DNA from: a virus
Taxonomy: Duplodnaviria > Heunggongvirae > Uroviricota > Caudoviricetes
Direction: 5' to 3' (one strand)
IMG/VR virus record: IMGVR_UViG_2563367000_000012
Location: 1-11,487 of that record
DNA length: 11,487 bases
Below are positions 9,001 through 11,487 of the stretch, one piece after another; the first letter of the stretch is position 1, and each line of letters begins with the position of its first letter. The position numbers are program-made.

Positions 9001-11487
9001 AGCAGGTTATGCGGCACAACCGTAACAATCAGGATCTGGTCAAGGAAGAACGTCTTCATCTGAAACCGCTGCCGCTTCGTCGCAGTGCTGACTATGATGA
9101 GCTGACTGTGAGGGTTAGCCGCAGCAGTACCATCAATGTGAAGCACGTCGTCTACAGCGTACCTTCCCGGCTTGTAGGTCAACTGTTACGGGTCCGGTTA
9201 TGGGACGATCGTCTGAGCTGTTACGTTGGCAGCAGCGAGGTCATGAGCTGCCCACGTGTCAGACCAGAAAAAGGGAAGACGCGGGCCCGTCGTATCGACT
9301 TCCGACATGTGATCGACAGTCTGGCAAAAAAGCCCGGTGCGTTCTGCCATGCAACGCTGAGAAATGACATCCTGCCAGACGATGAATGGCGGAGGCTGTG
9401 GCGTCGCTTATGTAATCATCTGGAACCCGACATGGCAGGCAGGCTGATGGTACATGCTCTGAAACTGGCTGCAGGATACGACGATATCTCAGTCGTGGCA
9501 AAAGGTATGGAGCAGATGCTGAATACCCCGGGAAACGTGGATCTGCACCGGCTGATGCGCTTCCTGGGTATAAAGGAAAAGGCGTTGCCGGTAGTCAATG
9601 TGAAACAGCATAACCTGAGCAGTTATGAGCAACTACTGCGTGGCAAGGGAGGTTCGCAGTGAGCAATATCCATCACCTTGAACGCAGCCTGCGTAAACTA
9701 CGCCTGACACGAGTTGGAGCTGAATGGCACGCTCTGGAAAAACGAGCACTGGCAGAAGGCTGGACACCATCGCGCTATCTTCTGACGCTATGCAATGAAG
9801 AACTCCTGTGGCGCGAGAGTGAAAAACTGCGTCGTTATAAAAAGGAGGCCCGGTTGCCAGTTGCCAAAACGCTAAGCGAATACGACTTCAGTCAGGTGCC
9901 GGAACTGAATGGAGCTCAGTTCCGGCAACTCTGTGAAACGACAGACTGGGTTGATGCAGGAGAAAACGTTCTGCTGTTCGGAGCCAGCGGGTTGGGGAAA
10001 AGCCATCTGGCGGCAGCGATCGTGGATGGCGTAGTAGGCCAGGGCTACCGGGCCCGGTTCTACAGCGCAGGAGAGTTGTTGCAGGAACTACGTAAAGCCA
10101 GAGCGCAGTTGAAACTGAATGAGCTGCTACTGAAACTGGATCGCTACCGGGTGATAGTGGTGGATGATCTTGGCTATGTCAAACGCGACAGCGCCGAAAC
10201 GGGAGTACTGTTCGAGTTAATAGCGCATCGCTATGAACGTGGGAGCCTGGTGATAACCAGTAACCATCCGTTCAGCATGTGGGGCAGCATCTTCGTGGAT
10301 GAGACTATGGCGGTGGCGGCGGCAGACCGGCTGATCCATCACGGATATATGTTCGAACTGAAAGGTGAAAGCTACAGGAAAAAGACAGCGAAGGCAGTAA
10401 CAAGCGCGACTTGATGTCGCACTGAAGGGGGCGGCCAGTATAGTTGGCGCGAGTCGGCAAAACTAGTTGACGTCTAATAACGTCCTGTTGTGTTTCTGTG
10501 TCTTATATATTCACGATGAAAATATAAATCAGTGTTTTATATCTGTGATCTTAATTTCACAAATTAATATTACATTATTTATTTTGTTTTTACTTTTCAT
10601 GAAAAATATAACTTGTTTTTTGATTTGTATCTAAATTTTGTCATAAATCAATAACAGTCACTCATTCCATTTAACTTGATTATAACGATCTTTTATTCTG
10701 CATATGAATAATATTCCGGTCATATATTCTGATTGTATTCTTTTTTTGTGTTATATGATTCTGGTATTTTGTGATTTTGTAGATAAAAAGATCGTGCAAT
10801 GTATATTTTTAAGTAAGAAACACCATGATAGTATTTGTGCCGTTGACGCAGGGGGAGACAGGTATCCTGTTGAATCTGAAGTGAAAAGGTTTCATTCCCT
10901 GCATGTTATTCGTGTGTATGGAGTGAATCAGAGATGAGGGAGCGATATCTGTATCTTGCTGACACCCCTCAGGGGATACTGATGTCCGGTCAGGTGCCGG
11001 AATATCAGTTCTGGTTACTGGCTGAGATATCGCCGGTGCACAGTGAGAAGGTTATTAATGCGCTGAGGGATTATCTGGTAATGGGATATAACCGTATGGA
11101 GGCCTGCGGGCGTCATGGTGTGTCGCCGGGATATTTTTCTGGTGCACTGAAGCGGTTTCAGCGGGTCAGTCAGACGGTATACAGGCTGGTGCCTTTTTAT
11201 TTCCCGGAGGCGGGTCATGAAGTTCACAGGGGAGAGTGATGAAAGGGCGTGAGCGGGTTTAATAAGTGCGGTTGATATTATTACGCTAATTAAAGCTATT
11301 TCTGTTAAGCATTAAGCATTAAGCATTAAGCATTAAGCATTAAGCATTAAGCATTAAGCATTAAGCATTAAGCATTAAGCATTAAGCACTGAATATTAAC
11401 ATCAGTTTCACCATCCGTTTCGCCACCCGGCACGAATGCGGTGACTGCATGCAGTCCGGTCAGAGTCAGTTCCGGGTGGGGATGGTG

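What the first reader, a model, noticed from the sequence alone, without database searches (positions are those of the whole stretch)
10480..10933. Pap-type Dam/Lrp phase-variation switch that seems to lack its PapI partner
Two inverted CGATCTTTT-type GATC boxes lie 103 bp apart in DNA of very low GC content, upstream of a PapB-family regulator, matching the pap switch geometry of distal and proximal GATC sites about 102 bp apart. In canonical systems a divergently transcribed papI-like gene sits just beyond the distal GATC. Here the roughly 200 bp between the distal box and the IS right end hold no PapI-like ORF on either strand, and the IS occupies the place where papI would be. Without PapI, pap-type switches are normally locked OFF, so this locus may be a switch disabled by IS-mediated rearrangement, one dependent on a PapI homologue encoded elsewhere, or a PapI-independent variant. 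A third GATC (10547-10550) lies 140 bp further upstream without the conserved box.
Basis: partly seen in the sequence, partly recalled or inferred. Interest (0 to 1): 0.65.

Follow-up and report, generated by a model that had tools for sequence, protein, structure and literature searches.

The report
Afa/Dr adhesin switch beside ISEc10
This is the already known on/off (Dam methylation/Lrp) switch of the E. coli Afa/Dr adhesin operon, and its small PapI-type partner gene (daaF/afaF) is out of view only because a published ISEc10 insertion, plus a join between two identical ISEc10 copies, put phage DNA where it would be.

Summary
Two inverted ACGATCTTTT boxes with GATC at 10687 and 10790 lie 103 bp apart in DNA of 16-27% GC, upstream of afaA (PapB family). 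They align in register with GATC-dist and GATC-prox of CFT073 pap. The window holds no PapI homologue.

This is the regulatory region of the afa/dra/daa operon, a known Pap-like Dam/Lrp phase-variation system. In intact loci the PapI homologue daaF/afaF starts 674 bp beyond the distal GATC, in a 920-bp intergenic region.

ISEc10 (8070-10479) sits in a published IS hotspot of this region (Alvarez-Fraga 2022). Eighteen of 5,426 complete E. coli genomes carry the same junction. In the two I inspected, daaF lies 565 bp beyond the IS.

Here the IS left flank is a lambda-like prophage. The flanking 6-bp duplications do not match. The window equals two separate loci of strain JNEC-KY173 with no mismatches, joined inside identical IS copies. 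That means recombination between the copies or an assembly mis-join.

Published data show normal afaA transcript with this insertion. The most likely reading is a functional switch served in trans by daaF. Known system, low interest.

The parts
10480..10933 (+). AT-rich regulatory region of the afa/dra/daa operon (Pap-like switch module)
   Evidence: 100% identical to KE21 L003 6001-6454 and to JNEC-KY173 L006. GC 16-27%. Aligns with the CFT073 papI-papB intergenic region.
10685..10695 (+). Distal GATC box ACGATCTTTTA (GATC 10687-10690), counterpart of pap GATC-dist (Lrp site 5)
   Evidence: ACGATCTTTTAT is invariant against pap in alignment A1.
10785..10795 (-). Proximal GATC box (rc ACGATCTTTTT; GATC 10790-10793), counterpart of pap GATC-prox (Lrp site 2)
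   Evidence: AAAAGATCGT is invariant against pap. It overlaps a promoter-like site.
10780..10807 (+). Sigma-70-like promoter candidate (TAGATA-16-TATATT) overlapping the proximal GATC; possible afaA promoter
   Evidence: Consensus scan only, and the number of promoter-like sites in the region is not above shuffled expectation. The position is analogous to papBA, where Lrp at the proximal sites covers the -35/-10 region (review PMC11316696).
10934..11239 (+). afaA, PapB-family regulator (101 aa)
   Evidence: Pfam PF03333 E = 4e-36. 39% identity to CFT073 PapB, E = 1e-24. Annotated AfaA WP_001209230.1 in loci with identical sequence.
8070..10479 (+). ISEc10 (IS21 family), 2,410 bp; istA 8163-9662, istB 9659-10414; terminal inverted repeats TATGAGACGACAA / TATTAGACGTCAA (the right end given as its reverse complement)
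   Evidence: Pfam IstB_IS21 E = 9.5e-62. RefSeq annotation of identical copies as ISEc10. Boundaries set by comparison with empty sites. No differences from either JNEC-KY173 copy.
8064..8069 (.). Left flanking hexamer CTCGGT, the target duplication of the prophage ISEc10 copy
   Evidence: Single copy in the empty prophage site of SK1144 (L007) and duplicated around the JNEC-KY173 prophage copy.
10480..10485 (.). Right flanking hexamer ACGTCC, the target duplication of the afa ISEc10 copy; it does not match the left flank
   Evidence: Single copy in the empty afa site of KE21 (L003) and duplicated around the JNEC-KY173 afa copy.
10547..10550 (.). Third GATC, inside TGTGATCTTAATTTCA; probably not part of the switch
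   Evidence: Absent from the afa-III plasmid allele (CATGTTC there) in alignment A1. Only a 2-mismatch CRP-like match, which is not significant.
10619..10634 (+). TTTGATTTGTATCTAA, candidate counterpart (by eye) of the sequence I take to be the pap CAP/CRP site (TTTGATATGTATCACA), about 62 bp upstream of the distal GATC
   Evidence: Read from the sequences. Not supported by the MAFFT alignment A1, which offsets the two sequences by about 10 bp. The consensus scan is inconclusive, with 3 mismatches. Inference only.
8037..8069 (+). First 11 codons of the prophage major capsid gene, cut by ISEc10
   Evidence: SK1144 has an intact capsid gene at L007 2138-3166. Junction sequences.
1873..7979 (+). 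Lambda-like prophage head module (Nu1, terminase A, W, portal, S49 protease, D); unrelated to the afa locus
   Evidence: Pfam hits. JNEC-KY173 annotation. 0 mismatches to L005.

Best explanation
Window 10480-11239 is the regulatory region and first gene (afaA) of an Afa/Dr/F1845 (afa/dra/daa) chaperone-usher adhesin operon of E. coli. It carries the Pap-type epigenetic switch: two Dam GATC sites 103 bp apart, each inside a conserved ACGATCTTTT box. By analogy with pap, the OFF state has Lrp on the proximal set covering the afaA promoter, with the distal GATC methylated. In the ON state the PapI homologue (DaaF/AfaF) helps Lrp move to the distal set and the proximal GATC becomes methylated. The partner gene is not lost. 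[quoted passage not shown] In this window that far end has also been exchanged for the flank of a second, identical ISEc10 copy that sits in the capsid gene of a lambda-like prophage. The cause is either homologous recombination between the two inverted copies (a ~2.1-Mb inversion that would put daaF at the reciprocal junction) or an assembly mis-join across the 2.4-kb repeat. DaaF is a small diffusible protein, so the switch is expected to keep working in trans, as it does in strains with the simple insertion. Shown here: the sequence anatomy, the homologies, the IS boundaries, the mismatched target duplications and the identity to the two JNEC-KY173 loci. From the literature: Dam/Lrp phase variation of daa and expression data for the ISEc10 allele. 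Inferred: Lrp site occupancy, promoter position, trans action in this strain, and presence of daaF in the source genome.
For: The GATC boxes are exact, inverted and 103 bp apart, with 0.01 expected by chance. Both boxes align in register with GATC-dist and GATC-prox of CFT073 pap, which are 102 bp apart. AfaA is PapB family, and DaaF is 51% identical to PapI. Intact loci KE21 and Nord1 have daaF divergent and 920 bp from afaA. The exact ISEc10-afaA junction is present in 18 of 5,426 complete genomes, out of 194 that carry this region. In FDAARGOS_536 and JNEC-KY173 daaF lies just beyond the IS. The target duplications are CTCGGT for the prophage copy and ACGTCC for the afa copy, and the window carries one of each. 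Window 1-10479 is identical to JNEC-KY173 prophage+IS, and 8070-11487 is identical to JNEC-KY173 IS+afa, with no mismatches in either. The two IS copies are identical and inverted in that chromosome. Literature (PMC8764528): the afa regulatory region is an IS hotspot; ISEc10 is found in afaE-XIII strains such as S103EC, which is among my exact-junction hits (H42, H88); its afaA transcript is unchanged and afaF is 1.3-fold up; EC958 with ISCro1 nearby is still phase-variable; and Afa/Dr phase variation by Dam and Lrp is attributed to van der Woude & Low 1994. The pap mechanism is reviewed in PMC11316696.
Against: The window itself cannot show that daaF exists in its source genome. Plasmid promoter-lacZ fusions carrying the ISEc10 allele gave lower activity than the IS-free promoter (PMC8764528), so some damping is possible. 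No methylation, Lrp-binding or expression data exist for this strain. The CRP-site and promoter assignments rest on weak consensus matches. A 2.1-Mb inversion with these end points would be strongly asymmetric, which makes a stable real inversion doubtful (my inference from E. coli K-12 map distances).
Confidence: 0.85

Rival explanations
1. This rival concerns only the left flank and is compatible with the main explanation. The phage/ISEc10/afaA arrangement is an assembly or windowing mis-join across two identical 2,410-bp ISEc10 copies. The true locus is the ordinary S103EC-type allele, with daaF 565 bp beyond the IS.
For: The window is a perfect 0-mismatch chimera of two JNEC-KY173 loci joined inside identical IS copies. 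No complete RefSeq genome has the recombinant arrangement, and the only genome with the phage D/IS junction has the parental arrangement. The implied inversion of ~2.1 Mb (0.94-3.04 Mb of 5.18 Mb) is not symmetric about the replication axis and should be costly (inference).
Against: Recombination between inverted IS copies is a common, real source of inversions. A contig that runs through a 2.4-kb IS usually comes from long reads, which normally resolve such repeats.
Confidence: 0.45
2. The switch is disabled (locked OFF) because IS-mediated rearrangement removed its PapI-type activator.
For: There is no PapI homologue in the window. In pap, PapI is needed for the OFF-to-ON transition (review PMC11316696). 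The ISEc10-allele promoter-lacZ fusion is less active than the IS-free promoter.
Against: daaF is present in the only genome sharing both flanks, and either model of origin retains it. The native afaA transcript is unchanged and afaF is not reduced in S103EC, which has the same junction. EC958, with an IS between afaF and the switch, is still phase-variable. PapI-family proteins act in trans (my knowledge of the pap literature).
Confidence: 0.07
3. It is a PapI-independent variant of the Pap-type switch.
For: None specific. Its only basis is the absence of a PapI gene in the window.
Against: The whole regulatory region 10480-10933 is 100% identical to loci that keep daaF. Both boxes keep ACGATC, the motif reported to confer PapI-dependent Lrp binding in pap (my recollection of Hernday et al. 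2003; not found in the searchable library).
Confidence: 0.02

Closest known systems
daa (F1845) / afa / dra regulatory region: the daaF(afaF)-daaA(afaA) Dam/Lrp phase-variation switch (van der Woude & Low 1994, as cited in PMC8764528)
   Same: It is this system. afaA is identical to WP_001209230.1. The regulatory DNA is 100% identical to intact chromosomal loci such as KE21 and 93.8% identical to the afa-III-type locus on plasmid CP088697.1. The GATC boxes are the same and 102-103 bp apart.
   Different: The window lacks daaF because of the ISEc10 insertion and the exchanged left flank.
ISEc10 allele of the afa regulatory region (strain S103EC, afaE-XIII; Alvarez-Fraga et al. 2022, mBio, PMC8764528)
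   Same: The IS-afaA junction is identical (S103EC is H42 and H88), with the same element and orientation.
   Different: In S103EC-type genomes, as inspected in FDAARGOS_536 and JNEC-KY173, the other side of the IS is the daaF flank. Here it is a prophage capsid-gene flank, and the target duplications do not match. The paper gives 2,530 bp and 440 bp upstream of afaA. I measure 2,410 bp and 454 bp.
pap (P fimbriae) papI-papB switch of UPEC
   Same: Inverted ACGATCTTTT boxes at 102 vs 103 bp spacing, in the same orientation relative to the PapB-family gene. PapB and PapI homologues are present. A possible CAP-site counterpart is seen by eye only.
   Different: The intergenic region is 422 bp in pap and 920 bp in afa/daa. 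The papI ATG is 212 bp from GATC-dist, against 674 bp for daaF. Outside the boxes the DNA is too diverged for blastn to detect.
Pap-like switches whose PapI homologue is not adjacent, such as pef of Salmonella (pefI) and clp/CS31A
   Same: A Pap-type regulatory region that would rely on a PapI-family protein encoded at a distance.
   Different: In those systems, by my recollection, the separation is the native organisation. Here it is secondary, caused by an IS. The review PMC12388093 notes that PefI acts as a repressor. I did not examine those loci.

Membership tests
Pap-like Dam/Lrp/PapI phase-variation switch (pap, sfa, daa/afa, and others) | Two GATC sites about 102 bp apart, each in a conserved inverted (A)CGATCTTTT box | tested here: met
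   10687 and 10790, 103 bp apart. The exact 10-mer occurs twice, inverted, with 0.01 expected. In register with pap.
Pap-like Dam/Lrp/PapI phase-variation switch (pap, sfa, daa/afa, and others) | Located upstream of a PapB-family regulator gene that heads a chaperone-usher adhesin operon | tested here: met
   afaA matches PF03333 at E = 4e-36. Loci with identical sequence continue with draB, afaC, draD, draP and the adhesin gene. The window ends before draB.
Pap-like Dam/Lrp/PapI phase-variation switch (pap, sfa, daa/afa, and others) | A divergently transcribed PapI-family gene on the distal side | tested here: not met
   No homologue in the window (tblastn best E 0.13). It is present in intact loci and beyond the IS in FDAARGOS_536 and JNEC-KY173. 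The absence is therefore secondary and does not bear on family membership of the locus.
Pap-like Dam/Lrp/PapI phase-variation switch (pap, sfa, daa/afa, and others) | Mutually exclusive Lrp binding with a differential GATC methylation pattern; dependence on dam, lrp and the PapI homologue | not testable with these tools
   Reported for daa by van der Woude & Low 1994, as cited in PMC8764528. Needs m6A sequencing or genetics in this strain.
Pap-like Dam/Lrp/PapI phase-variation switch (pap, sfa, daa/afa, and others) | CRP (CAP) site upstream of the distal GATC | tested here: inconclusive
   A look-alike of the pap site lies at 10619-10634 (3 mismatches to consensus), and there is a 2-mismatch site at 10544-10559. 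The match count is not above the shuffled expectation, and alignment A1 does not place the look-alike opposite the pap site.
ISEc10 (IS21 family) | istA transposase plus istB helper ATPase, terminal inverted repeats, near-identity to annotated ISEc10 copies | tested here: met
   Pfam IstB_IS21 E = 9.5e-62. Identical to the JNEC-KY173 copies and 1 mismatch from a CFT073 copy, all annotated as ISEc10. The inverted repeats match at 11 of 13 positions.
ISEc10 (IS21 family) | A simple insertion is flanked by a matching target-site duplication | tested here: not met
   Left flank CTCGGT, right flank ACGTCC. Each matches a different parental copy, so this is a recombinant or mis-joined copy rather than a primary insertion.

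The most novel reading that the evidence does not exclude
The arrangement is a real chromosomal inversion of about 2.1 Mb between two inverted ISEc10 copies in a clinical E. coli of the JNEC-KY173 lineage. It would leave the Afa/Dr switch next to a dead prophage and its PapI-type activator daaF about 2 Mb away. That would be a natural experiment showing that a Pap-type switch runs purely in trans. It could combine with a second, unstudied layer of variation from the hypervariable (TTAAGCA)n tract just downstream of afaA.
Probability: 0.3. Interest if true: 0.35.

Novelty: already known. Interest (0 to 1): 0.15.

Why it matters
It matters little beyond correct annotation. The locus is the well-studied Afa/Dr adhesin switch of uropathogenic and diffusely adhering E. 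coli. IS insertions at this spot, including ISEc10, have already been described and tested for their effect on expression (PMC8764528). The useful outcome is negative: the apparent orphan switch is an effect of the window boundary, an IS insertion and an IS-IS join, not a new PapI-independent mechanism. If the inversion is real, it adds a small example of IS-driven genome rearrangement touching a virulence locus.

Tried and rejected
1. A PapI homologue missed by eye. tblastn of DaaF and AfaF against all six frames found nothing, and ORFs of 20 aa or more in 10440-10940 are AT-rich junk.

2. Direct blastn of the regulatory DNA against pap, sfa or foc. Only the afaA coding part finds distant relatives, so I fetched CFT073 pap by coordinates and aligned it instead.

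3. My own idea that the daaF promoter lies inside the AT-rich module at the pap-equivalent position (about 10511), so that the IS would cut daaF from its promoter. I rejected it because afaF transcript is not reduced in the ISEc10 and ISCro1 strains (PMC8764528).

4. ISCro1 of EC958 at exactly the same base as ISEc10. It is not. It lies at KE21 5911-5918, about 85 bp further upstream, so the published hotspot is a zone of about 90 bp.

5. Locating the crossover inside the IS. This is impossible because the two parental copies are identical.

6. The third GATC as part of the switch. It is not conserved in the afa-III allele.

7. A CRP consensus scan. Not significant.

8. A literature search for ACGATC with PapI and for the heptamer repeat sequence. 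Nothing relevant in the searchable library.

Full report
**What the window is.** Pfam scans and comparison with annotated genomes show three blocks.
- A lambda-like prophage head module: Nu1 at 1873-2421, terminase A, W, portal, S49 protease, and D at 7632-7979.
- An IS21-family element with istA (8163-9662) and istB (9659-10414).
- An AT-rich stretch followed by a PapB-family gene at 10934-11239 (PF03333, E = 4e-36).

Megablast of 10440-11487 finds the afa/dra/daa adhesin locus of E. coli. The gene is annotated afaA, and 194 of 5,426 complete genomes hold the region.

**Checking the observation.** GATC occurs at 10687 and 10790, 103 bp apart. The sites sit in ACGATCTTTTA (+ strand) and its inverted copy. 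The exact 10-mer ACGATCTTTT occurs only at these two places, once per strand, against 0.01 expected from shuffles. GC content is 16-27% across 10500-10800.

I fetched the CFT073 pap operon (papB and papI) and read its intergenic region. The same boxes occur there 102 bp apart, in the same orientation relative to the PapB-family gene. In a MAFFT alignment ACGATCTTTTAT and AAAAGATCGT are invariant and in register. AfaA is 39% identical to PapB (E = 1e-24).

The third GATC (10547) is real but absent from the plasmid afa-III allele. It is unlikely to belong to the switch.

**Where the PapI partner normally is.** In intact loci (KE21, Nord1) the PapI homologue daaF (75 aa) is divergent and 920 bp from afaA. 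DaaF is 51% identical to PapI (E = 5e-20). Its ATG is 674 bp from the distal GATC. In pap the intergenic region is 422 bp and papI starts 212 bp from GATC-dist. In this family the 208 bp between the IS end and the distal box would never contain the gene. tblastn with DaaF and AfaF confirms that no homologue exists anywhere in the window (best E = 0.13).

**The IS.** Comparison with empty and occupied sites fixes the element at 8070-10479. It is 2,410 bp long, with inverted repeats TATGAGACGACAA and TATTAGACGTCAA (the right end given as its reverse complement) and a 6-bp target duplication. RefSeq annotates identical copies as ISEc10.

The exact IS-afaA junction occurs in 18 complete genomes. 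In the two I inspected, FDAARGOS_536 and JNEC-KY173, daaF lies 565 bp beyond the IS left end. The IS simply sits in the middle of the long intergenic region, 454 bp upstream of the afaA ATG.

This allele is published. Alvarez-Fraga et al. 2022 (PMC8764528) describe the afaF-afaA region as an IS hotspot holding ISCro1, ISEc10, IS1 and a 118-bp insert. They name S103EC as the ISEc10 strain, and S103EC is among my exact-junction hits. They report:
- an unchanged native afaA transcript in S103EC;
- a 1.3-fold higher afaF transcript;
- lower activity of a plasmid promoter-lacZ fusion carrying this allele.

EC958 has ISCro1 in the same zone. I place it about 85 bp further upstream. EC958 still shows a mixed ON/OFF population. 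The same paper attributes Afa/Dr phase variation by Dam and Lrp to van der Woude & Low 1994.

**Why the left flank is phage.** Only one complete genome, JNEC-KY173, has the phage D/ISEc10 junction. That genome has two ISEc10 copies. One lies in the afa region and one lies 11 codons into the prophage major capsid gene. They are in opposite orientation and about 2.1 Mb apart.

The prophage copy is flanked by CTCGGT and the afa copy by ACGTCC. The window has CTCGGT on the left and ACGTCC on the right. Window 1-10479 equals the prophage locus, and 8070-11487 equals the afa locus, each with no mismatches. The two IS copies are identical to each other.

The window is therefore exactly one product of recombination between the two copies. 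That would be an inversion placing daaF-IS next to the rest of the capsid gene. Alternatively it is an assembly mis-join across the repeat. I cannot separate these two possibilities. From E. coli K-12 map distances, the end points (pheU island and a terminus-proximal prophage) would give a very asymmetric inversion. I therefore give the artefact about even odds. That part is inference.

**How it most likely works.** By homology with pap (review PMC11316696), Lrp on the proximal sites covers the promoter in the OFF state. A promoter-like TAGATA-16-TATATT overlaps the proximal GATC. Together with the PapI homologue, Lrp shifts to the distal sites, the proximal GATC becomes methylated and afaA is transcribed.

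All of the afaA-side module is intact and base-identical to loci that keep daaF. DaaF is small and diffusible. Under either origin model, daaF keeps its own 565-bp upstream region. I therefore expect the switch to behave like the S103EC allele: functional, possibly somewhat damped. None of this was measured for this strain.

**Comparison and novelty.** The system is the known daa/afa/dra member of the Pap-like switch family, and the ISEc10 allele is published. The only unpublished element is the recombinant or mis-joined left flank. Novelty is 'already known' and interest is low.

**Side observation.** A perfect (TTAAGCA)12 tract at 11305-11388, between afaA and the chaperone gene, varies from 2 to 18 copies among afa-positive genomes, strictly in steps of 7 bp. 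It varies from 4 to 12 copies even among the genomes that share the single ISEc10 insertion. I found no mention of it in the searchable literature.

Noticed in passing
window 11305-11388: A perfect heptamer tandem repeat (TTAAGCA)12 lies in the afaA-draB/afaB intergenic region (TRF score 168). Across afa-positive complete E. coli genomes the tract length changes strictly in 7-bp steps, from 2 to 18 copies. It ranges from 4 to 12 copies even among the 18 genomes that share the same ISEc10 insertion. It therefore looks like a fast-evolving simple-sequence repeat inside a virulence operon, possibly a second layer of expression variation. No mention was found in the searchable literature.
   Followed up: partly
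window 8037-8069 (and L005/L007): ISEc10 cuts the prophage major capsid gene after codon 11, whereas SK1144 has the intact gene. This lambda-like prophage is probably defective for head assembly.
   Followed up: partly
window 10469-10484: The IS right end plus the target hexamer form a small palindrome (GACGT-CTAATA-ACGTC) that scores as terminator-like on both strands. The target ACGTCC resembles the IS terminus GACGTC, which may hint at a target preference or may be coincidence.
   Followed up: no
L003 5535-6000 (KE21; outside the window): Intact afa/daa loci carry about 470 bp of higher-GC DNA between daaF and the AT-rich Pap-like module. pap has no such spacer (920-bp vs 422-bp intergenic region). 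The ISEc10 site lies at the boundary of this spacer with the AT-rich module, and the ISCro1 site of EC958 lies about 85 bp inside the spacer. The origin of the spacer is unknown.
   Followed up: no
window 10486-10505: CTGTTGTGTTTCTGTGTCTT, immediately next to the IS end, resembles the (TGTGTTTGC)x3 repeats in the pap intergenic region, which I recall as PapB binding site 1. If it is the AfaA site, the IS insertion abuts it.
   Followed up: no
window 10704-10937: A 77-aa ATG ORF spans the proximal GATC and the afaA leader. It is not annotated in any of the RefSeq loci examined and has no Pfam match. It is probably spurious.
   Followed up: partly
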